Notes under the pieces: model-generated | The model's database searches: none | What the model was told of the DNA's origin: nothing | The model's input: the letters and a program-made list of their open reading frames with translations, nothing else | Assembly: GCA_016432445.1 (NCBI GenBank) | Contig: CP066689.1 | Span: forward strand, 600,001-632,000 | Direction: 5' to 3' | DNA length: 32,000 nucleotides | Source of the DNA: Candidatus Saccharimonadota bacterium | Lineage (GTDB): Bacteria; Patescibacteriota; Microgenomatia; UBA1406; GWC2-37-13 | In this document: piece after piece, positions 1,564 through 32,000 of the stretch | Layout: each line of letters opens with the position of its first letter | Position numbering within the stretch: position 1 is the stretch's first letter | Program-made: the position numbers and the translations under genes

Positions 1564-1641
1564 AAAAAAAAGACCTATGGGGTGGAAAAAATCAGCCAGC
1601 GGCTGATTGATGACAACATTGTCACCAGTCCATAGGTCTTT
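1564..1641 (-). terminator. multi-hairpin 3' element of cassette A ending in U8 (complex intrinsic terminator or 3'-UTR RNA)
   Basis: Outer stem agacctatgg (1571-1580) pairs with ccataggtct (1630-1639). It encloses hairpins at 1591-1607 and 1611-1624. On the minus strand the structure is followed by T8 (1564-1571). Confidence 0.55.
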
Positions 1642-3843: not shown

Positions 3844-3933
3844 AAAAAAAAGACCTATGGTTTTCCGTTGAGTAAATGCACTTTATTGTGCACCGGCGAC
3901 TATATAGTCGTCTAAACGGTTGACCATAGGCCT
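3844..3933 (-). terminator. multi-hairpin 3' element of cassette B ending in U8
   Basis: Outer stem agacctatgg (3851-3860) pairs with ccataggcct (3924-3933) and is perfect on the minus strand only, via one G-U. Inner stem ccgtt/aacgg, with hairpins at 3877-3892 and 3895-3912. T8 follows on the minus strand (3844-3851). Confidence 0.55.
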
Positions 3934-8884: not shown

Positions 8885-8940
8885 GCTATGGGTTAGTGTT
8901 TTTTTTCCAAAAAAAGGTCATAGATAAGATGTACAAATCA

Positions 8941-8971
8941 GCCTCAATCCACCCCGTACGTGGATTGAGGC
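8941..8971 (+). promoter_or_regulatory. 11-bp-stem palindrome in the uvrB upstream region
   Basis: gcctcaatcca-N9-tggattgaggc, ending 18 nt before the ATG at 8990 and immediately before the AAGGAAG Shine-Dalgarno. Confidence 0.4.
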
Positions 8972-8989
8972 TAAAAAGGAAGTGAACTA

Positions 8990-11176
8990 ATGGTATACGA
9001 CTATAAAAAGTGGTACAATTATTGGTTTATGCAATTTACTCTTACTTCAAAATTTAGTCCTACCGGAGATCAACCTCAGGCGATAGAGAAATTATCTGAA
9101 GGAATCAAAACTGGCCTTAAAAACCAGGTTCTTTTGGGTGTGACTGGTTCTGGTAAGACTTTCACCATGGCTAATATGATCGAAAAACTTCAAATGCCCG
9201 CGCTCATAATTTCGCACAATAAAACTTTAGCTGGTCAGCTTTATCAGGAAATGAGAGATTTCTTTCCGGAAAATGCCGTCTCTTATTTTGTTTCTTATTA
9301 TGACTACTACCAGCCTGAAGCTTATATGCCCCAAACTGACACTTACATAGAAAAAGAAGCTCAAATTAATGAACTTATTGATAAACTACGTTTACAATCA
9401 GCCACAAATATTTTGACCCGCAAAGACGCTATTGTTGTCGCTTCAGTGTCCTGCATTTACAATATTGGGTCTCCAGTTGATTATGGAAAATATATTTTAA
9501 ATCTGGCTATAGGTGATAAAGCCAATTGGAACAGCATTGCTTACCGGTTGGTAGAACTTATGTATTGCCGGGCTGAGTTTGAGTTTGGCCGCGGAACTTT
9601 CAGGATAAGAGGGGAGAGCATGGATATTTACCCAGCTTATGAAGATTATGGTTATAGAGTAAAATCCAAAAATGGAATCATCAGCGAGTTTGTAAAATTC
9701 GAACCATTAACTGGTAATGTCATTGCGAGCGAAGCCAGGTACAGGCCTGTACCTGACGAAGCGAAGCAATCTCACAATGGGATTGCTTCGTCACCTTCGG
9801 TTCCTCGCAATGACGGTCTGAAATCTATAATCGTCTACCCCGCCAAGCAGTATCTTACTGATAAACTTAAGTTCGACTCCTCCGAGCAGCAAATAAGAAC
9901 CGATCTTAAAAAAGAATACGATGATTTGAAAAACCAAGGTAAAGATCTAGAGGCTCACAGACTTCTAAAAAAAGTGAATTATGACTTAGAAATGATAAAA
10001 GAGGTTGGTTACGTAAATGGAATAGAAAACTATTCGCGTTATCTTGATGATAGACGGCCAGGCGATCCTCCCTACAGTTTAGTTGATTACTTTACCCAAG
10101 CTTACGGAAAAAATTTTTTAGTTTTCATTGATGAGTCGCATATGACAGTGCCCCAGTTAAGAGGTATGTACAATGGTGATTTTTCTAGAAAAAAAACATT
10201 AATTGATTTTGGTTTTAGAATGAAAGCGGCTTATGATAATAGACCTTTAAAATTTGAAGAATTTTATCGCCTTCCTCCGCACATAATTTATGTGTCAGCA
10301 ACTCCTGATGAGTGGGAAATAAATCAATCGAAGACGGAAGTAAAAACGAAAGTAGGGAACGCAGATCTGCGTTCCGTACAACATGATGGGGTTGTTGAAC
10401 AGTTGATAAGACCGACCGGCATTATTGATCCTCAAATAACTGTCAGGCCATCATCAACAGAGATTCCTGATTTGGTTGAGGAAATAGCGAAAAGAGTTAA
10501 ATTAAACCAAAAAATACTGGTAACTACTCTAACAAAAAAAACGGCGGAAGATTTAACAGAATATTTAAAAGATAAGCAAGTAAGAGCCTCATATCTTCAT
10601 TCGGATATTCAAACTCTTGAGCGGTCTGACGTTTTGGATAATTTGAGAAAAAATGAGTTTGATGTTTTAATTGGTGTTAATTTGTTAAGAGAAGGATTAG
10701 ATTTACCTGAAGTCTTTTTGGTGGCTATACTTGACGCCGATAAAGAAGGTTTCTTAAGATCGAAAACTTCACTTGTTCAGACTATGGGAAGAGCGGCCAG
10801 AAACGTATCAGGAGAAGTTATAATTTATGCTGATACAATGACTAAGTCAATTAAAGCCGCAATAGAGGAAATTGAGCGCCGAAGAGCTTATCAATCTCAA
10901 TACAACAAAAAACACAATATTACACCAACTACAGTTCTTAAGCCAATAAGAGAAAAAATCATCGAAAAGCCAGAAGATTATTTAGCATACGATGCACCAA
11001 AATCAGATATCGGCAAGGAATATTTAGATAATCTAAAAACAGATTCACTCACACCATACGATAGAAAGAAAGTTGTTAAACGTTTGGAGAAGGAAATGAA
11101 AAAACAAGCCGAAGATCTTAATTTCGAGATGGCTATTAGGATAAGGGATAAGGTAAGGGAGTTAAAAACCATTTGA
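8990..11176 (+). CDS. uvrB: excinuclease ABC subunit B
   Basis: GDQPQAI, GVTGSGKTF, YVSYYDYYQPEAY, DESH, the helicase motifs and a C-terminal UVR domain. An alternative start at 9029 (MQFTLTSKF...) aligns better to E. coli UvrB, but 8990 has a Shine-Dalgarno. Confidence 0.97.
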   Translation: MVYDYKKWYNYWFMQFTLTSKFSPTGDQPQAIEKLSEGIKTGLKNQVLLGVTGSGKTFTMANMIEKLQMPALIISHNKTLAGQLYQEMRDFFPENAVSYFVSYYDYYQPEAYMPQTDTYIEKEAQINELIDKLRLQSATNILTRKDAIVVASVSCIYNIGSPVDYGKYILNLAIGDKANWNSIAYRLVELMYCRAEFEFGRGTFRIRGESMDIYPAYEDYGYRVKSKNGIISEFVKFEPLTGNVIASEARYRPVPDEAKQSHNGIASSPSVPRNDGLKSIIVYPAKQYLTDKLKFDSSEQQIRTDLKKEYDDLKNQGKDLEAHRLLKKVNYDLEMIKEVGYVNGIENYSRYLDDRRPGDPPYSLVDYFTQAYGKNFLVFIDESHMTVPQLRGMYNGDFSRKKTLIDFGFRMKAAYDNRPLKFEEFYRLPPHIIYVSATPDEWEINQSKTEVKTKVGNADLRSVQHDGVVEQLIRPTGIIDPQITVRPSSTEIPDLVEEIAKRVKLNQKILVTTLTKKTAEDLTEYLKDKQVRASYLHSDIQTLERSDVLDNLRKNEFDVLIGVNLLREGLDLPEVFLVAILDADKEGFLRSKTSLVQTMGRAARNVSGEVIIYADTMTKSIKAAIEEIERRRAYQSQYNKKHNITPTTVLKPIREKIIEKPEDYLAYDAPKSDIGKEYLDNLKTDSLTPYDRKKVVKRLEKEMKKQAEDLNFEMAIRIRDKVRELKTI
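9721..9816 (+). repeat. 96-nt in-frame palindromic repeat element inside uvrB
   Basis: Flanked by cattgcgag...ctcgcaatg. Internal palindromes caggtac-aggcct-gtacctg and gaagcaatc-N9-gattgcttc. It adds 32 codons (IASEARYRPVPDEAKQSHNGIASSPSVPRNDG) that are absent from E. coli UvrB at this point. Confidence 0.8.
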
Positions 11177-11216: not shown

Positions 11217-14099
11217 ATGTTAAATTCAATCAAAATAAAAGGGGCAAGACAACATAATCTTAAAAATATTGATCTTGAAATTCCTAAAAATAAATTTGTA
11301 GTGATAACTGGTGTTTCAGGATCGGGTAAATCCTCTTTGGCTTTTGACACAATTTATGCTGAAGGACAGAGGAGATATGTTGAATCTTTATCGGCCTACG
11401 CCAGACAGTTTTTAGGAATAATGGATAAGCCGGATGTAGAAAGTATCGAAGGCCTATCCCCTTCTATTTCAATTGACCAGAAAACTGTTTCACATAATCC
11501 CCGTTCAACAGTGGGAACAATCACTGAAATCTATGATTACCTGCGTCTTTTATATGCCCGTATCGGTCACCCTCATTGCCCAAACTGTAAAATTGAGATC
11601 AGCAAGTTGTCAGTTGATGAAATTACAAGAAAAGTGTTTGATGCTATTGCTTTAGAACTGAATAAAGATAAAATCAAGCCTCACCAGTTTTCAATACTTT
11701 CGCCTATTGTTAGAGAAAGAAAAGGTGAGTTCAAGGATCTTTTTGATAACTTGAGCAGTAAAGGTTATACAAAAGTGAGAGTTGACGGCAAAGAAATAGA
11801 GATAAGCAGAGATATTAACTTAATAAAAACTAACAAACATACGATTGAGGTTATTGCTGACTCATTTTTTGTTTCGTATAGAGATTTTAAAGATGAGATT
11901 TTTAAAAGTAACTTAAGATCCCGCCTAAGCAGTAATATTGAACAGAGTACTAATTTATCAGATGGATTGGTTATTTTGAAAAGCTCTTCAGAAGAACATC
12001 TTTACTCGGAAAAATTTTCATGTCCCAACTGCAATTTGTCTCTTCCCGAAATCGAGCCGAGGATGTTTTCCTTTAATTCTCCCATTGGGGCGTGTGTAAC
12101 CTGTAAAGGCATAGGCACTATTTATAAGGTCGATCCTGAACTAGTACTTAACAAAAACTTAAGTATTAATGAAGGCGGTATTATCCCCTTCAGCAAGTTC
12201 TTTTTTATGGAAACATGGTACACCAGAATAATAAAAAAGATGGCTGAAGAGAAAGAAATTAATCTGAATAAACCTATTGAAAAGCTTGGGAAAGAAAAGA
12301 TTGAGACACTCCTTTATGGAACTGATGAGGTTTATCATGTGCCTGGAACAAACCGGCAAGGAAGACATACTGTCATACATGAAAAGTTTGATGGAATAGT
12401 GAAGGAGTTGGAACGGAGATACTTTGATTCCAGCAGCGACTACAGCGGTATGGATTTTCAAAAATACATGCGGGAGGAAGTTTGCGAATATTGCCGCGGA
12501 GCTAAACTTAAACCAGAGGTTTTATCAATCACAATTGATAATCAGAATATAGCTAAGCTTTCAGATTTTTCAGTAACTGATCTTATTGATTACTTAAAAA
12601 ATAAATTATTGTCAAAGATTAATAACTATGAAACCCAGATTGCCACTCCAATTTTAAAGGAAATTGATACGAGATTGACATTTTTAAATAATGTGGGATT
12701 ATCTTACCTTACTGTTTCCCGAGCCGCCAAGACTTTGTCAGGAGGAGAACTTCAAAGAATACGTTTAGCTTCGCAGATCGGAACAGGCCTAACCGGAGTT
12801 CTTTATGTTCTTGATGAGCCTTCAATCGGACTTCATCCTAAAGATGTTTCCGCTCTTATTGACAGCCTAAAAAATTTAAAAGAGCTGGGTAATACATTAA
12901 TTGTGGTTGAGCATGACCGCGAAACAATTGAGTCGGCAGATTATATTGTCGAACTTGGGCCCCATGCTGGGAAAAACGGCGGTAACATTATTTTCACAGG
13001 ATCTGTTGAACAAATTAAAAAGTCTGAAAAAGCTTTAACTGGTCAGTTTTTATCAGGAAAAAAATTAATAGAATTGACTAAAAATGAATTAGTTTCCACT
13101 CGAGGAAAAATCTCACTTAAAGGTGCCAAGCAATATAACCTTAAAAATATAAATGTTGATTTTCCATTAGGAAATCTCATTGCGGTGACCGGTGTATCTG
13201 GGTCAGGGAAATCTACATTGGTAACTGAAACTCTGTATCCAGCCCTTAAATACTATCTTGATGGTTACTATCAGGAACAAATGGGTGATTTCCAAAGATT
13301 AGAAGGATATCACTATATTGATCGCGTCTACCTTGTTGATCAGGGTCCAATAGGAAGAACTCCAAGATCAAATCCAGCAACGTACATTGGTTTTTTTGAT
13401 CTTATAAGAGACATTTTTGCTAAAACAATTGAGGCAAAAGTCAAAGGCTTTGAGAAAGGACGATTCTCATTTAATGTTAAGGGAGGCCGATGTGAGAAGT
13501 GTCAAGGTGCAGGAGTCATAAAAATTGAGATGCAGTTTTTACCAGATGTTTATGTGATCTGTGATGTCTGCGAGGGCATGCGTTACAACAGTGAAACGCT
13601 CGAGATTAAATATAAAGGTAAAAGTATTTATGATATTTTGAAGATGACGGTTGATGAAGCTGTTGACTTTTTCCAAAATCATCTATTAATTCACACAAAA
13701 CTACTCTTCCTTAAAAAGGTGGGCTTAGGCTATGTTGAACTCGGCCAGCCAGCTCCTACTTTCTCAGGAGGCGAAGCTCAAAGAATAAAACTGGCCAATG
13801 AACTTTCAAGAAAAGAAACTGGAAAGACTATGTATATTCTTGATGAACCCACTACTGGACTTCACTTTTATGATATCGAAAAACTTCTTCATGCATTAAA
13901 TGAGTTAGTCGCACGGGGTAATACGGTTGTAGTTATCGAACATAATCTTGATGTCATCAAAAATTGTCAGTACGTAATTGATATGGGGCCGGATGGAGGG
14001 ACAAAAGGCGGCCAGGTAGTTTATCAAGGAGAATTTAAAGGAATACTGAAAACAACATCCTATACAGGGGACTACTTAAAGAAAATGTTGTACTATTGA
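11217..14099 (+). CDS. uvrA: excinuclease ABC subunit A
   Basis: Two ABC ATPase modules ([29 protein letters not shown]), zinc-finger Cys clusters and 960 aa. Confidence 0.97.
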
Positions 14100-15971: not shown

Positions 15972-17285
15972 ATGAATGAGACTAATAATGCTGTTTGCTA
16001 CAAGCTTAGTAAAAGCGAATTAACTAAATTACCAGCTACGACTGGCGTTTATATTTTTAGAAACAGGAAAGAGATTCTCTACATAGGAAAATCAATAAAT
16101 CTTAAAGCTAGAGCTTTATCACATTGGGAAAACTCAAAAATTGATAACAAAGAAGCAGCAATCATTCAAAACTCAAAGTGGCTAGAAACTCAGATTACAG
16201 ATTCAGAGTTTATGGCTTTGATATTAGAATCAAGACTTATTCAAAAATATAAACCTAAATATAACGCCCGCTGGAGAGATGACAAAAGCTATCTCTACAT
16301 TAAAATAAACACTAAAACAGATTATCCTAAAATATTATCATCAAGAAAAGAGTTTGATGGAAAATCGAAATATTTTGGTCCTTTTTCATCTGTAAAAAAT
16401 GTCTTTAAAATATTAAAGGAGGTGAGACGCGTTTTTCCATTTTGCTCACAAAAAAATATAACTAAAAAACAATGTTTTTATTCAAAAATACATCTATGCA
16501 GTCCCTGTCCCAACGAGATAGAACAAGTTATAGACTTAGTTTTAAAAAGAAATCTTAAATTAGTCTATAGAAGAAATATATACAGCATAATCAAAGTCTT
16601 GGAAGGAAAAACAGAACCTATTTTAAATCAGCTTTATAAGAATTTAAAAAAACTGTCGGAAGAAGAAAAGTATGAGGAAGCTTTAATAACGAGAGATAGA
16701 ATCATGCACCTGGAAACATTGCTTCATAAAAGACTATTTTCAGCAGATACAGCATTAAGTTATAATCTCAGTACTCAAAGTACAGAAAGTTTGATTAAAC
16801 TACTAAGTAGATTTTTTTCCAATTTACAGGATTTGAAACGGATAGAGTGCATAGACATCAGTAATTTTGCCTTAAAGCAAGCTACGGCTTCGCTAGTAGT
16901 TTTCACAGAAGGTTTAATGGATAAGAATGAGTATAGGCGTTTTAAGATAAAAGACTTAACTCTCAAATCGGATTTTGAGATGATGAAAGAAGTTCTTGAA
17001 CGGCGCTTTAGACAAAACTGGCCTTTTCCTGATTTGCTTGTTACTGATGGAGGAAAACCGCAGGTGAAAACTGCACTTAAAGTAACAGCTGATTTAAATA
17101 TTAAAGTTCCAATAATCGGTATTGCTAAACATCCCGACAGATTGGTTATTGGCAACAACAGCCTTGAGACGGTAAAACCTGATATTCATCATTTAGGTTT
17201 TAATTTAGTAAGAGCTATAAGGGATGAATCACACCGCTTTGCCAGGAAATATCATATATTTCTGAGAGATAAAAAAATAGTATAA
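15972..17285 (+). CDS. uvrC: excinuclease ABC subunit C, short form lacking the C-terminal (HhH)2 domain
   Basis: GIY-YIG (GVYIF..ILYIGKS.NL..R), a Cys-rich segment, a UVR domain (EEKYEEALITRDRI) and an endonuclease domain ending ...RDESHRFARKYH. It has 437 aa against about 600 in E. coli. Confidence 0.9.
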   Translation: MNETNNAVCYKLSKSELTKLPATTGVYIFRNRKEILYIGKSINLKARALSHWENSKIDNKEAAIIQNSKWLETQITDSEFMALILESRLIQKYKPKYNARWRDDKSYLYIKINTKTDYPKILSSRKEFDGKSKYFGPFSSVKNVFKILKEVRRVFPFCSQKNITKKQCFYSKIHLCSPCPNEIEQVIDLVLKRNLKLVYRRNIYSIIKVLEGKTEPILNQLYKNLKKLSEEEKYEEALITRDRIMHLETLLHKRLFSADTALSYNLSTQSTESLIKLLSRFFSNLQDLKRIECIDISNFALKQATASLVVFTEGLMDKNEYRRFKIKDLTLKSDFEMMKEVLERRFRQNWPFPDLLVTDGGKPQVKTALKVTADLNIKVPIIGIAKHPDRLVIGNNSLETVKPDIHHLGFNLVRAIRDESHRFARKYHIFLRDKKIV

Positions 17286-29708: not shown

Positions 29709-29990
29709 ATGAGCGGTAGATTATCAGATAGTGGTAGCTACTCAATAACCTACAATCTTCCATTCTGGTTTTTAAAACAAACCAGTGAATATACTTCTGA
29801 AATGAAAATATCAAGAAAAAACTTCTACGAGTGGAAAGATAGATTCGAATCCTCAGGACGAGAATTTCCTTCCCTTGAAGTTAAGTCAAAAGCTCCTAAA
29901 ACTGAACGTACTATTGAATTAACTTCTCACAATTTTGATAACCTCATGGACTTGACGAAATTCGATAAGAAAGGTAACATTTATATATGA
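29709..29990 (+). CDS. small protein with a transposase-N-terminal-like HTH segment
   Basis: ISRKNFYEWKDRFESSG....LEVKSKAPKT resembles the IS3/IS481 OrfA HTH (..SR.T.YRW..RY...G...L...SR.P). ATG at 29709 is preferred to the TTG at 29685. Confidence 0.45.
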   Translation: MSGRLSDSGSYSITYNLPFWFLKQTSEYTSEMKISRKNFYEWKDRFESSGREFPSLEVKSKAPKTERTIELTSHNFDNLMDLTKFDKKGNIYI

Positions 29991-30541
29991 ATCTAGAACA
30001 ACAACCTAAATATGCAGTGCCGTTAGATAAGGCGATTGCTCCCTACCGAAGTCCATTTTATCAAGATGCCGGAGAACGTAACCTTATTCGCACTCTGTTC
30101 TTAAATCAGATTAAAGAGGAAAAATATTCACAACCTTCTGTAAAACCCTATTCTGCATTACTTAATATTGCTGAGAGTGGAGGTTTAGGGGGTTATACTC
30201 ATCCGACGAAGTTAATAACGTATATTCTTGAATCCCCTGATTTCTGTGATAAATTTGGCGCACTTAGTGAAAATGAGTCGGGTAAACGACATATCCTTAC
30301 TGTTGCTGCAGCTAAAGAAATGGGAAGGTTGTATAGGCTTCGTTCCGCTGCCACTTATGAAGTTTTTGGTGCAAGAATAGATAAAGAACAAGAAATACAA
30401 AGATACACTGAAGAAATAAAGATGCTATCAAGCTTTATAGATAACTTAAGTTTAACAGAAAGTCCTGGTAGTCCTCCGGAAGGCAATCGATTACCTTGGC
30501 CAGATAGGGGATTGCCTTCAGCAGAGACAAATAGACATTGA
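29987..30541 (+). CDS. hypothetical protein (184 aa)
   Basis: The start overlaps the upstream stop (ATGA). No recognisable motif, and no DDE-type transposase signature. Confidence 0.45.
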   Translation: MNLEQQPKYAVPLDKAIAPYRSPFYQDAGERNLIRTLFLNQIKEEKYSQPSVKPYSALLNIAESGGLGGYTHPTKLITYILESPDFCDKFGALSENESGKRHILTVAAAKEMGRLYRLRSAATYEVFGARIDKEQEIQRYTEEIKMLSSFIDNLSLTESPGSPPEGNRLPWPDRGLPSAETNRH

Positions 30542-30754: not shown

Positions 30755-30780
30755 CGCACTTTTAAAATTTTCACTGGACT

Positions 30781-30854
30781 GGGCTCGTAGTTCAGTTGGC
30801 TAGAACATCGCATTTGCAATGCGAAGGTCACCGGTTCGATCCCGGTCGAGTCCA
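30781..30854 (+). tRNA. tRNA-Ala (anticodon UGC)
   Basis: Acceptor GGGCTCG/CGAGTCC with the G3-U70 identity pair, anticodon loop TTTGCAA, T-loop GGTTCGATCC. Confidence 0.92.
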
Positions 30855-31065
30855 CCCTTCGTCCACGAGCTTACGCTCGGGATTTTGGAGTGGCACAGAC
30901 ACAACAAAGTGGGGCTAAAATAGTCGGCAAACTATAGTCAGCAGACAACAGAATTAATTTCCGTTGACTGTTGACTGTAGACTATCGACTATATATGTAC
31001 TTTGACAATCAGGAGTAAGGTAACAATTGAAAGGTATAAAATAATACATCTTTTTTTGAATAACT

Positions 31066-32000
<935 letters not shown>

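What the first reader, a model, noticed from the sequence alone, without database searches (positions are those of the whole stretch)
9721..9816. 96-nt palindromic repeat element inserted in-frame in uvrB
The segment cattgcgag...ctcgcaatgacgg contains nested palindromes: CAGGTAC-AGGCCT-GTACCTG and GAAGCAATC-N9-GATTGCTTC. It is exactly 32 codons with no stop.

It falls between the residues LTGNV and LKSIIVYPAKQY, which are contiguous in E. coli UvrB ([20 protein letters not shown]). The encoded peptide (..IASEA..EAKQSH..IASS..PRNDG) is typical of a widespread short palindromic repeat that normally lies between genes.

Either UvrB tolerates a 32-residue surface loop, or the element is removed or affects expression at the RNA level.
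Basis: partly seen in the sequence, partly recalled or inferred. Interest (0 to 1): 0.65.

Follow-up and report, generated by a model that had tools for sequence, protein, structure and literature searches.

The report
Palindromic repeat inserted in-frame in uvrB
A 96-base copy of a very widespread bacterial palindromic repeat (a "CGTC-tagged REP" pair, the same kind as some Rickettsia palindromic elements) sits in-frame in the DNA-repair gene uvrB of a Candidate Phyla Radiation bacterium and most likely just adds a floppy 32-residue surface loop; this is a known kind of event seen here in a new host lineage.

Summary
Window 9719-9814 is 96 nt with perfect 11-nt terminal inverted repeats (GTCATTGCGAG/CTCGCAATGAC). 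It is exactly 32 stop-free codons of uvrB and is the most stable 100-nt fold in the 32-kb window.

It is not a lineage-specific loop. The titled genome records name about 15 or more phylum-level groups, including CPR.

Its anatomy matches the CGTC-tagged REP superfamily of Di Nocera et al. 2013, which includes Rickettsia RPE-4 and RPE-6. It has a C/T-GTC tag, a stem starting AT, a CCA-like tail, head-to-head units and no target duplication. That paper already lists in-frame copies in uvrA, uvrB and uvrC.

The window copy is a composite of two head-to-head units, with a third small CGTC unit nested in the left one.

The site is the loop at the end of UvrB domain 2. AlphaFold2 predicts the insert as disordered. 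Eighteen of 120 Roizmanbacteria UvrBs have an expanded loop there, and all seven examined at DNA level hold a hairpin-forming palindrome.

Best explanation: a selfish repeat tolerated and translated in a permissive loop. Translation is inferred, not shown. Verdict: new member of a known kind.

The parts
8990..11176 (+). uvrB (excinuclease ABC subunit B). The database version starts at 9029 and is 715 aa. uvrA follows at 11217-14099 and uvrC at 15972-17285.
   Evidence: The ORF is listed. The match to solved UvrB structures has E = 1e-209. Pfam finds ResIII, UvrB_inter, Helicase_C, UvrB and UVR. The neighbouring genes are annotated in L001. Walker A (GSGKT) and DESH are invariant in the 72-sequence alignment.
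9719..9814 (.). Whole composite palindromic element, terminal repeat to terminal repeat. It is 96 nt, i.e. 32 codons (VIASEARYRPVPDEAKQSHNGIASSPSVPRND). With the tag bases it spans 9718-9815.
9718..9774 (+). Unit A, on the + strand. It reads tag TGTC, stem arm ATTGC (9722-9726), GAG, a CGAAGC mini-hairpin region, GAA, stem arm GCAAT (9766-9770) and tail CTCA. It is interrupted by the nested unit C.
   Evidence: Compared with the family consensus YGTC-ATTGC-GAG-X-GAA-GCAAT-CCA, which comes from 236 half-units. The base before GTC is C or T in 95% of copies.
9734..9758 (-). Nested unit C. On the - strand it reads CGTCAGGTACAGGCCTGTACCTGGC: a CGTC tag plus a 9-bp perfect stem. Together with the duplicated CGAAGC it adds 27 nt, which encode RYRPVPDEA.
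   Evidence: The tag-plus-stem scan found it. Its DNA fold has z = -3.4. The identical 25-mer occurs in one unrelated intergenic context in a groundwater metagenome, L249 1231-1255. Canonical 69-nt dimers without this piece exist, e.g. L236 VIASEAKQSQNQIATSPAAPRND.
9728..9735 (+). First copy of the direct repeat AGCGAAGC that flanks nested unit C. The second copy is at 9760-9767.
   Evidence: family D2, spacing 32.
9760..9767 (+). Second copy of the direct repeat AGCGAAGC.
   Evidence: family D2.
9778..9815 (-). Unit B. On the - strand it reads CGTC-ATTGC-GAG-GAACCGAAGGTGAC-GAA-GCAAT-CCCA. It is a canonical unit arranged head-to-head with unit A, separated by a 3-nt spacer (9775-9777).
   Evidence: Sequence, compared with the family consensus.
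10352..10375 (+). A second, separate in-frame palindrome in uvrB: GTAG followed by GGAACGCAGA/TCTGCGTTCC, a perfect 10-bp stem. It encodes VGNADLRS and lies in another length-variable loop. It is not part of the 96-nt element.
   Evidence: No exact copy was found in viral contigs.

Best explanation
The segment is a non-autonomous selfish DNA repeat of the CGTC-tagged REP superfamily. Two about 30-40-nt hairpin units lie head-to-head, and a third small CGTC-tagged unit is nested in the left one.

It sits in the loop at the C-terminal end of UvrB domain 2, the UvrA-interaction domain. Its length is a multiple of three, and it lies in one of its two open frames. It is therefore most likely transcribed and translated with the gene, adding a 32-residue disordered surface loop that UvrB tolerates.

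Such copies are seen inside genes because selection removes insertions that break essential genes. CPR genomes also have very little intergenic space, so surviving copies pile up in permissive loops.

What is shown:
- identity with a multi-phylum repeat family;
- the tag, stem, tail and head-to-head anatomy;
- absence of a target-site duplication;
- in-frame and stop-free status;
- absence from nearly all relatives;
- recurrence of palindromic inserts at this loop and in other housekeeping genes.

What is inferred:
- that the insert is translated and not removed;
- that UvrB stays functional;
- the mode of spread. This is probably a single-strand, hairpin-recognising mechanism like that of REP/RAYT or IS200/IS605 elements, or recombination between repeat copies or relics. 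No mobilising enzyme is known for CGTC REPs.
For: Family identity:
- A stricter three-block pattern hit the 120-stretch limit in species-representative genomes. These include the CPR groups Patescibacteria, Berkelbacteria, Daviesbacteria, Saccharibacteria and Parcubacteria, and cultured Flavobacterium, Mucilaginibacter, Pedobacter, Lacinutrix and Sphingopyxis.
- Copies occur in Novosphingobium plasmids (at least 40 places in one record), and in Methylosinus, Methylocystis, Methylobacterium, Aulosira and Legionella plasmids.

Anatomy:
- The base before GTC is C in 50% and T in 45% of ends, at both ends, and there is no target-site duplication.
- The tail after GCAAT is CCA in 49% and CTC in 28% of half-units.
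- The two halves vary independently: 53 pairs are the same against 46.6 expected. This fits a head-to-head dimer of separate units.

Literature:
- Di Nocera et al. 2013 (PMC3733652) define CGTC REPs by a CGTC/TGTC tag, a stem starting AT, a CCA tail, a predominance of head-to-head dimers and no associated transposase.
- They equate the CGTC-1 and CGTC-4 families with Rickettsia RPE-6 and RPE-4.
- They list in-frame intragenic copies in uvrA, uvrB, uvrC, uvrD, recBCD, polA and dnaE2. R. conorii uvrB carries two.

Insertion rather than native loop:
- 102 of 120 relatives have a loop of 15 residues or fewer here, and the closest relative has 14.

Tolerated loop:
- AlphaFold2 gives pLDDT below 50 and coil for residues 235-262, between well-modelled strands.
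- The catalytic motifs are invariant.
- uvrA and uvrC next door are intact.

Frame constraint:
- Only 2 of the element's 6 frames are open, and the frame in use is one of them.
- Among gene-internal copies found by DNA pattern (not by protein) in low-GC genomes, the lengths of the GMP synthase copy, the scanned LeuRS copy, both L236 copies and the L215 copy are multiples of three. The YchF copy measures 94 nt between terminal repeats.
- GMP synthase, YchF and LeuRS were confirmed by Pfam. The L215 and L236 ORFs were not tested.
- Lengths over all 257 distinct copies fall in all three classes, 98/88/71.

Recurrence at this loop:
- All 7 expanded loops examined at DNA level hold hairpin-forming palindromes, 4 of them with (C/T/A)GTC tags.
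Against: - No RNA or protein data show that the insert is retained in the mRNA and translated.
- Only one copy of this family lies in the 32-kb window. Multi-copy status in this genome is therefore untested.
- The units do not meet the published stem and loop dimensions of CGTC REPs. They have a 5-bp stem that encloses a mini-hairpin, instead of an 8-9-bp stem with a 4-5-nt loop.
- Isolated half-units are not unusually stable under nearest-neighbour DNA energies, z about 0.
- The AlphaFold2 'disorder' is partly by construction, because the alignment has no homologues of the insert.
- A -54 kcal/mol hairpin inside an mRNA could well affect translation or mRNA stability.
Confidence: 0.78

Rival explanations
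1. The element acts at the RNA level. The very stable hairpin inside the uvrB mRNA could be a target for a double-strand-specific RNase, or a ribosome roadblock that tunes UvrB expression. Alternatively the segment could be excised from the transcript, so that the protein lacks the 32 residues.
For: - The RNA fold is -54.1 kcal/mol, z = -7.5, and is the strongest in the window.
- REPs are widely thought to act as post-transcriptional elements. Di Nocera et al. argue this from their location and G-T pairing.
- CPR bacteria are known, from general knowledge, to carry intervening sequences in rRNA genes that are removed.
Against: - No Rfam family matches, even at E <= 10.
- Ninety-six nucleotides is too small for a group I or group II intron.
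- No mRNA cleave-and-rejoin pathway for such elements is known in bacteria.
- There is no terminator-like T tract after the hairpin.
- Excision would put no constraint on frame or stops. Yet this copy and the Pfam-confirmed gene-internal copies of the family are stop-free.
- For Rickettsia RPEs the review literature treats such inserts as translational fusions (PMC10969869; PMC3733652).
- An effect on expression can coexist with translation, and it is not excluded.
Confidence: 0.1
2. The loop content is an old, vertically inherited insertion rather than a recent transposition. An ancestral REP dimer entered this loop before the window lineage split from its closest relatives. Most lineages then lost the interior by deletion between the arms. 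The window lineage kept it, or restored it by recombination with another copy using the relic ends as homology.
For: - The closest relative, P0002, has the loop KELKVIASTRGDTQ.
- Its DNA, GTT ATC GCA AGT ACT CGT GGA GAT, resembles the two element ends (GTC ATT GCG AGC ... CCT CGC AAT GAC). The left-end differences are all third-position transitions.
- Other relatives show VIA[SD]..N[ST][ND] at the same place.
- P0017 has KVIAS followed by a single tagged hairpin unit.
Against: - The window copy has perfect 11-nt arms and near-consensus inner arms, although the proteins have diverged by about 25%.
- V-[IL] after LTGx is also a native feature of UvrB in Bacillus (LTGEVL), so part of the resemblance may be native.
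- The resemblance at the right end is weak, 8 of 15 bases.
- This rival changes the history, not what the element is.
Confidence: 0.25
3. Insertion at this loop is targeted or selected, not merely tolerated. The repeats would preferentially enter, or be retained in, the UvrA/Mfd-contacting domain 2 of UvrB, and repair genes in general, because they alter repair activity. This is the mutator idea of Di Nocera et al.
For: - 18 of 120 Roizmanbacteria UvrBs have an expanded loop at the same site, with unrelated palindromic contents.
- This includes a pair 96.6% identical outside the loop.
- A second tagged palindrome lies in another loop of the same gene.
- Published lists are rich in uvrABCD, recBCD, polA and dnaE2.
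Against: - The same families are also in-frame in GMP synthase, YchF and LeuRS, the last with three inserts. This fits a general permissive-loop filter in gene-dense genomes.
- The loop is naturally variable in length, 7-15 residues in 102 of 120 relatives.
- No functional data exist.
Confidence: 0.12
4. Ordinary lineage-specific loop, or an assembly artefact.
For: The loop varies in length among relatives.
Against: - The termini and inner arms are identical to more than 250 copies in unrelated genomes.
- The fold has z = -7.5.
- The same DNA is present in an assembly of a public sequencing run, and the 728-aa form of the protein is on four more contigs.
Confidence: 0.01

Closest known systems
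CGTC-tagged REPs (Di Nocera, De Gregorio and Rocco 2013, BMC Genomics 14:522), especially the CGTC-3 type (CGTC-ATTGCCGGG-loop-CCCGGCAAT-CCA, back-translated by me from the peptides VIAGLDPAIH...RVKPGHD in their Additional file 3)
   Same: - An unpaired C/T-GTC tag at the outer end.
- A stem beginning AT. Here it is ATTGC/GCAAT, the same first five pairs as CGTC-3.
- A CCA-like tail.
- A head-to-head dimer arrangement, with no target duplication.
- Mostly intergenic, with occasional in-frame copies inside housekeeping genes, including uvrA, uvrB and uvrC.
- Multi-copy in alphaproteobacteria such as Novosphingobium.
- No associated transposase found.
   Different: - The stem is only 5 bp. It encloses GAG + a small GNA-loop mini-hairpin + GAA, instead of a continuous 8-9-bp stem with a 4-5-nt loop.
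- The host here is a CPR (Roizmanbacteria) genome of 36% GC.
- The distribution seen here, with titled records naming about 15 or more phylum-level groups plus viral contigs, is wider than the 5 phyla reported.
- The window copy carries a third unit nested inside one unit.
Rickettsia palindromic elements (RPEs; Ogata et al. 2000 and 2002; Claverie and Ogata 2003)
   Same: - Palindromic repeats inserted in-frame in unrelated housekeeping genes.
- Read through as extra peptide segments at sites judged compatible with the fold.
- RPE-4 and RPE-6 are themselves CGTC REPs according to Di Nocera et al.
   Different: - The classical RPE-1 is a longer (about 100-150 bp) family specific to Rickettsia.
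- Sequence similarity of the window element to any RPE consensus was not tested, because the papers with the consensus sequences are not in the library.
- The host and the GC context differ.
GTAG REPs / REPINs mobilised by RAYT (TnpA-REP) transposases
   Same: - Short hairpin units with an unpaired 4-nt tag, commonly as inverted pairs.
- No target-site duplication.
- Presumed single-strand hairpin recognition.
   Different: - The tag differs (GTAG, not CGTC).
- RAYT genes flanked by the repeats are the hallmark of that system. None was seen next to or between copies here, and none is reported for CGTC REPs.
MITEs such as Correia, ERIC and RUP
   Same: Small non-autonomous elements with terminal inverted repeats. 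Some occur inside genes as in-frame fusions.
   Different: MITEs made by DDE transposases leave target-site duplications and share their ends with a parent IS. Here there is no duplication and no parent IS is known.

Membership tests
CGTC-tagged REP superfamily (Di Nocera et al. 2013) | An unpaired tetranucleotide tag, CGTC (or TGTC/CCTC), at the outer end of the unit. | tested here: met
   The window has TGTC at 9718-9721 (+) and CGTC at 9815-9812 (-). In the family the base before GTC is C in 50% and T in 45% of 508 ends. Nested unit C also has CGTC.
CGTC-tagged REP superfamily (Di Nocera et al. 2013) | The stem begins with complementary A and T in its first and second positions. | tested here: met
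   ATTGC...GCAAT in units A and B and throughout the family. Nested unit C starts AG, so it does not meet this.
CGTC-tagged REP superfamily (Di Nocera et al. 2013) | A continuous stem of 8-9 bp with a loop of 4-5 nt. | tested here: not met
   Units A and B have a 5-bp stem (ATTGC/GCAAT) that encloses 10-20 nt with a 2-4-bp mini-hairpin, mostly with GNA loops. The authors note that units with bulges may have escaped their search. Nested unit C has a 9-bp stem and a zero-nt loop.
CGTC-tagged REP superfamily (Di Nocera et al. 2013) | A 3-nt unpaired tail, consensus CCA. | tested here: met
   In the family the tail is CCA in 49%, CTC in 28% and CCC in 5% of 236 half-units. The window has CTC(A) in unit A and CCC(A) in unit B.
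CGTC-tagged REP superfamily (Di Nocera et al. 2013) | Predominantly head-to-head dimers of independent units. | tested here: met
   All copies retrieved are inverted pairs, although the search pattern required this. The inner-arm variants of the two halves are statistically independent, 53 the same against 46.6 expected.
CGTC-tagged REP superfamily (Di Nocera et al. 2013) | A repeated family, with many copies within one genome. | tested here: inconclusive
Elsewhere the family is multi-copy: at least 40 places in one Novosphingobium plasmid, 3 copies in 10.6 kb of L036, and several genomes with two or more stretches.
CGTC-tagged REP superfamily (Di Nocera et al. 2013) | No dedicated transposase gene flanked by the repeats. 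| tested here: inconclusive
   The ORFs between paired copies 200-2500 nt apart were inspected by eye only, with no family search. They did not look like transposases, and several look like phage or membrane proteins. No systematic co-occurrence test was done.
Rickettsia palindromic elements (RPE) | Sequence similarity to one of the RPE consensus families. | not tested
The only link is indirect, through Di Nocera's statement that RPE-4 and RPE-6 are CGTC-4 and CGTC-1.
Rickettsia palindromic elements (RPE) | In-frame insertion in protein-coding genes, read through as a peptide at a site compatible with the fold. | tested here: inconclusive
   In-frame and stop-free status is shown. AlphaFold2 places the insert in a disordered surface loop. 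Translation itself is not testable with these tools.
MITE (derivative of a DDE-transposase IS) | Terminal inverted repeats plus a target-site duplication. | tested here: not met
   Terminal repeats are present. No direct repeat of the flanks stands out in 254 copies: matches of 4 nt or more number 0-3 at any offset.
GTAG REP / REPIN-RAYT system | A GTAG tag and an associated RAYT gene. | tested here: not met
   The tag of the 96-nt element is YGTC, not GTAG. No RAYT-like ORF was seen between copies. A separate GTAG-tagged palindrome does exist at 10352-10375.
Self-splicing intron, intervening sequence or known structured RNA | A match to a curated RNA family, or the size and motifs of an intron. 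| tested here: not met
   No Rfam match at gathering score or at E <= 10. The element is only 96 nt.

The most novel reading that the evidence does not exclude
The loop at the end of UvrB domain 2 may be a true insertion hotspot for CGTC-type repeats in Roizmanbacteria, not merely a permissive site. Relics of earlier copies (VIAS...RND) would act as landing pads that recruit new copies by recombination or by a tag- or hairpin-directed enzyme.

In that case the family would be moved between phyla by a conserved, still unidentified machinery, possibly carried by phages. The family has invariant 11-nt ends, its titled records name about 15 or more phylum-level groups, and it occurs on viral contigs. 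Repeated remodelling of the UvrA/Mfd-contacting domain would then have consequences for repair.
Probability: 0.12. Interest if true: 0.65.

Novelty: new member of a known kind. Interest (0 to 1): 0.36.

Why it matters
In-frame palindromic repeats in housekeeping genes are a classic curiosity of Rickettsia, and in-frame REPs have been catalogued in other bacteria, notably in excision-repair genes.

This case extends the phenomenon to the Candidate Phyla Radiation. Those genomes have almost no intergenic space, so such repeats may often survive only inside permissive protein loops. LeuRS, YchF and GMP synthase examples turned up in the same scans; LeuRS and YchF are from CPR genomes.

Practical consequence for annotators: GC-rich 20-35-residue inserts with VIAS/SLRG/HCEE...PRND/LAMT motifs in CPR proteins are repeat-derived. 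They are not functional domains or assembly errors.

The very wide distribution of one repeat with invariant ends also sharpens an open question from 2013: what mobilises CGTC REPs?

Tried and rejected
- Rfam, at gathering score over the whole window and at E <= 10 on 9600-9950, found nothing on the element.
- A full-text search for the terminal and inner-arm sequences found only chance primer matches.
- A search for CPR/Patescibacteria together with REP, MITE or palindromic-element terms found no paper on such repeats in CPR.
- A peptide search of the 5.8-billion-protein collection with a tandem canonical-plus-actual insert peptide gave no hit at E <= 1. Neither in-frame copies in other proteins nor same-genome copies could be found that way.
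- Exact copies of the nested palindrome were absent from viral contigs. One was found in metagenomes.
- The GTAG palindrome at 10352-10375 has no exact copy in viral contigs.
- The GenBank phage collection has no match to the window element.
- A look for a gene flanked by two copies, which would be a REPtron-like autonomous partner, found nothing that looked like a transposase.
- A terminator or promoter role was rejected by the scan.
- The idea that the element is one co-evolving long hairpin was rejected, because the two halves vary independently.
- MITE classification was rejected for lack of target-site duplications.
- The count of stop-free frames spanning copies in high-GC viral contigs (29 of 139) was set aside, because long open frames arise by chance at high GC.


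Full report
**1. The observation**

The repeat finder reports three inverted repeats:
- a perfect 11-nt terminal pair, GTCATTGCGAG at 9719-9729 and CTCGCAATGAC at 9804-9814;
- a perfect 20-nt palindrome at 9736-9755;
- a 13-nt arm pair at 9762-9790.

The same call reports an 8-nt direct repeat, AGCGAAGC, at 9728 and 9760.

The element folds far better than chance:
- As RNA it folds at -54.1 kcal/mol, against -28.0 +/- 3.5 for shuffles. That is z = -7.5, with none of 200 shuffles as stable.
- As single-stranded DNA both strands give z near -9.
- In a sliding 100-nt fold of the whole window it ranks first, ahead of the 23S rRNA.
- Local GC is 0.50-0.51 in 100-nt windows, in a 36% GC window.

The repeat-defined element (9719-9814) is 96 nt, or 32 codons, with no stop in the uvrB frame. 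Only two of its six frames are open.

**2. The host gene and the site**

The ORF at 8990-11176 is UvrB. It matches solved UvrB structures at E about 1e-209 and has the full Pfam architecture. uvrA and uvrC lie just downstream.

The best protein matches are Candidatus Roizmanbacteria (CPR). The protein is recorded on a 1.10-Mb contig.

The HMMER alignment to Bacillus caldotenax and Geobacillus UvrB splits exactly at the insert. It falls between chain residues about 237 and 241, at the C-terminal edge of the Pfam UvrB_inter domain, which is domain 2.

An AlphaFold2 model built on 72 relatives has mean pLDDT 77. It shows residues 235-262 as coil with pLDDT below 50, between well-modelled strands 217-224 and 266-269. 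The low confidence is partly expected, because the alignment holds no homologues of the insert.

Walker A, DESH and the other helicase motifs are invariant.

The identical DNA is present in an assembly of a public sequencing run, Logan SRR12113431. The 728-aa form of the protein is on four further contigs. I did not check whether that run is independent of the data behind the 1.10-Mb contig, but an assembly artefact is unlikely.

**3. It is an insertion, not a native loop**

In a MAFFT alignment of 120 relatives the loop has a median of 11 residues, and it is 7-15 residues in 102 of them. The window has 36. The closest relative, P0002 (75% identical over the whole protein), has 14.

**4. It belongs to a very widespread repeat family**

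It yielded 139 copies in contigs of GC 0.36 to 0.72.

A stricter three-block pattern hit the same limit in the species-representative genome collection. The records come from:
- Alpha-, Gamma- and Delta-proteobacteria;
- many Anaerolineae and other Chloroflexota;
- Bacteroidota, including cultured Flavobacterium defluvii DSM 17963, Mucilaginibacter, Pedobacter aquatilis and Lacinutrix venerupis;
- Planctomycetota, Omnitrophota, Elusimicrobiota, Nitrospirota, Gemmatimonadota, a cyanobacterium and Firmicutes;
- the CPR groups Patescibacteria, Berkelbacteria, Daviesbacteria, Saccharibacteria and Parcubacteria.

Most of these are metagenome bins, so individual assignments (for example one 'Halobacteria archaeon') should be treated with care. 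The cultured isolates are firm.

In PLSDB plasmids the consensus matches at least 40 places in one Novosphingobium resinovorum replicon. It also matches Methylosinus, Methylocystis, Methylobacterium, Aulosira and Legionella plasmids, always without an annotated feature.

The consensus is Y-GTCATTGCGAG, then X, then GAA/GCG/GTG-GCAAT-C(C/T)N, a variable spacer, and the reverse complement of the same.

**5. Anatomy of the family**

- The base before GTC is C (50%) or T (45%) at both ends. Positions further out are unconstrained, and there is no target-site duplication.
- After GCAAT the next three bases are CCA in 49% and CTC in 28% of 236 half-units.
- The piece X is a small GC stem closing mostly GAA, GCA, GGA or GTA loops, with clearly different stems in different copies: GC-GAA-GC, CC-GCA-GG, GCCC-GCA-GGGC, GCGC-GCTT-GCGC.
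- The three common variants of the inner arm (GAAGC, GCGGC, GTGGC) combine independently in the left and right halves. They are the same in 53 elements, against 46.6 expected.

The roughly 80-nt 'palindrome' is therefore a head-to-head pair of separate units, not one co-evolving hairpin.

**6. Anatomy of the window copy**

- Unit A (+ strand, 9718-9774): TGTC-ATTGC-GAG-CGAAGC-[nested piece]-GAA-GCAAT-CTCA.
- A 3-nt spacer at 9775-9777.
- Unit B (- strand, 9815-9778): CGTC-ATTGC-GAG-GAACCGAAGGTGAC-GAA-GCAAT-CCCA.
- The nested piece, read on the - strand, is CGTCAGGTACAGGCCTGTACCTGGC (9758-9734). This is another CGTC tag followed by a perfect 9-bp stem. It is flanked by a duplicated CGAAGC.

The nested piece adds 27 nt, encoding RYRPVPDEA. 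Without it the dimer would be the canonical 69-nt form seen elsewhere, for example VIASEAKQSQNQIATSPAAPRND in L236. Both layers are multiples of three.

The identical 25-mer occurs once more in the metagenome collection, in an unrelated intergenic hairpin of a Hainich groundwater contig. The nested piece is therefore probably a mobile unit in its own right.

**7. What is already known**

Di Nocera, De Gregorio and Rocco (2013, PMC3733652) sorted REPs into GTAG- and CGTC-tagged superfamilies. They define CGTC REPs by:
- the tag, often TGTC;
- an 8-9-bp stem beginning AT;
- a 4-5-nt loop;
- a CCA tail;
- predominance of head-to-head dimers;
- no associated transposase.

They also report that:
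- CGTC REPs occur mainly in alphaproteobacteria but in five phyla overall;
- the CGTC-1 and CGTC-4 families in R. conorii correspond to RPE-6 and RPE-4;
- in-frame intragenic copies exist, with the encoded peptides listed.

Those peptides include VIPAKAGI...SRFRGND and VIAGLDPAIH...RVKPGHD. The genes hit are rich in uvrA, uvrB, uvrC, uvrD, recBCD, polA and dnaE2, and R. conorii uvrB has two single units.

Back-translating their CGTC-3 peptides gives CGTC-ATTGCCGGG-CTTGA-CCCGGCAAT-CCA (my inference). That shares the tag, the first five stem pairs and the tail with the family found here.

A 2024 review restates that RPEs are frequent in-frame fusions, judged compatible with protein folds (PMC10969869).

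I found no paper on such repeats in CPR.

**8. Recurrence at the same loop**

Eighteen of the 120 relatives have loops of 18-54 residues. I obtained DNA for seven of them, and each expanded loop holds a hairpin-forming palindrome:
- P0008: CATTCTGG...CCAGAATGAC with nested hairpins, -50.8 kcal/mol over 150 nt.
- P0044: GTCATCTCGAAC...GCTCGAAATGAC.
- P0081: CGTC-ATTCTCGG...CGAGAAT, plus an inverted unit ending GTGAGGATGAC.
- P0017: AGTC-ATCCTGAA-GATAT-TTCAGGAT.
- P0069: CTGTC...CATCTTTAAC/GTTAAAGATG...GACAG.
- P0009 and P0011: these are 96.6% identical in protein outside the loop, yet carry different palindromic contents.

Two unexpanded loops fold weakly (-11.4 and -5.1 kcal/mol).

The closest relative's short loop (KVIASTRGDT; GTT ATC GCA AGT ACT CGT GGA GAT) looks like the two ends of the element with the interior missing. 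The left-end differences are all third-position transitions. This suggests either an old shared insertion later eroded, or relic ends that serve as homology for re-acquisition. I could not decide between these.

**9. Recurrence in other genes**

Among 46 copies in low-GC loci from the genome scan, most are intergenic or at gene ends. Several lie well inside long ORFs, and three of those hosts were confirmed by Pfam:
- GMP synthase (L134).
- YchF of a Daviesbacteria genome (L190).
- LeuRS of Parcubacteria GW2011_GWB1_42_6 (L231). It holds three palindrome-derived inserts, including a VIPAQAGIQ...LDPRFHGDD one of the Rickettsia-like CGTC-1 type.

The terminal-repeat-to-terminal-repeat lengths are multiples of three for five gene-internal copies: the GMP synthase copy, the scanned LeuRS copy, the two L236 copies and the L215 copy. 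The L236 and L215 ORFs were not tested against Pfam. The YchF copy measures 94 nt. Lengths over all 257 distinct copies fall in all three classes, 98/88/71.

This pattern is what a translation constraint predicts. It argues against removal at the RNA level, and it also argues that UvrB is not a special target.

**10. How it most likely works**

Shown:
- The segment is a copy of a mobile-looking repeat family.
- It is absent from most relatives.
- It is in frame and free of stops.
- It lies in a loop that varies in length and is predicted disordered.

Inferred:
- It is co-transcribed and translated, and UvrB keeps working.
- Insertions that break genes are purged, so the copies seen inside genes are those in permissive loops and in an open frame.

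The way the units spread is unknown. Three features point to a single-strand, hairpin-recognising mechanism like that of REP/RAYT or IS200/IS605 elements: the lack of target duplications, the 4-nt tag next to a hairpin, and the head-to-head pairs. No enzyme is known for CGTC REPs. I saw none between paired copies, though those ORFs were inspected by eye only.

An additional effect of the very stable mRNA hairpin on expression cannot be excluded. There is no terminator-like T tract.

**11. Verdict**

The case is a new member of a known kind: a CGTC-REP, RPE-like in-frame insertion, already documented for uvrB in Rickettsia.

Modest new points:
- the CPR host;
- a unit architecture with an interrupted stem, outside the published stem and loop dimensions;
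- the three-unit composite;
- the repeatedly remodelled UvrB loop;
- the breadth of the family, including viral contigs.

Interest is moderate to low for the finding itself. The open question of what moves CGTC REPs is the more interesting thread.

Noticed in passing
window 10352-10375: A second in-frame palindrome in uvrB: GTAG followed by a perfect 10-bp stem (GGAACGCAGA/TCTGCGTTCC). It encodes VGNADLRS and lies in another loop whose length varies among relatives. It looks like a GTAG-tagged REP unit, so the same gene may carry both REP superfamilies. No exact copy was found in viral contigs.
   Followed up: partly
window 1569-1641 and about 3851-3930: Two copies of another palindromic element with ends AAAGACCTATGG...CCATAGGTCTTT (the second copy ends CCATAGGCCTTT). 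Each is preceded by an A run and lies between ORFs. They fold at -38 to -45 kcal/mol and may be a second repeat family or bidirectional terminators.
   Followed up: no
window 8940-8972: A perfect 13-bp hairpin (AGCCTCAATCCAC-CCCGTAC-GTGGATTGAGGCT) about 20-55 nt upstream of the two candidate uvrB start codons, just before a GGAAG ribosome-binding-like motif.
   Followed up: no
window 30780-32000: The 23S rRNA gene starts at 31070, preceded only by tRNA-Ala (30780-30857). No 16S rRNA or tRNA-Ile was found upstream in the window, where protein ORFs run up to about 30541. The rRNA genes appear to be unlinked.
   Followed up: no
window 30479-30519: A hairpin with 10-nt arms GAAGGCAATC...GATTGCCTTC, one base different from the repeat's inner arm GAAGCAATC. 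It lies at the end of an ORF without any Pfam match (29987-30541), upstream of tRNA-Ala and the 23S rRNA gene. It could be an rRNA-leader processing stem or a repeat relic.
   Followed up: no
L231 (Parcubacteria GW2011_GWB1_42_6, LCEC01000010.1), ORF spanning locus position 2520: Leucyl-tRNA synthetase carrying three separate palindrome-derived in-frame inserts: CHCEESEGRRSNP..., VIASSERAKQSRSDAANREIASSQAPRNDD and CHSRSASVIPAQAGIQ...LDPRFHGDD. The last is of the same type as Rickettsia CGTC-1/RPE-6 peptides.
   Followed up: partly
L125 (P0002), L126 (P0017), L127 (P0048): UvrB loop after LTGK: Relatives without a full insert carry VIA[SD]...[RN][GNS][DN] in the same loop. In P0002 the DNA resembles the two ends of the element, with third-position differences at the left end. 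These may be relics of older insertions.
   Followed up: partly
L250 (P0009) and L251 (P0011): Two UvrBs that are 96.6% identical in protein outside the loop (84% at nucleotide level) have entirely different palindromic contents in the loop, 34 against 54 residues. This points to fast turnover at the site.
   Followed up: partly
L005-L124 (IMG/VR viral contigs): The same repeat with invariant 11-nt ends is common on contigs classed as viral, often between phage structural genes. Phages may carry the family between hosts, or these contigs may include host DNA.
   Followed up: no
L249 1231-1255: The nested 25-mer CGTCAGGTACAGGCCTGTACCTGGC recurs inside a larger CCCCG...CGGGG hairpin. The hairpin lies in an intergenic region of a Hainich groundwater contig that also carries a P-type ATPase fragment.
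   Followed up: partly
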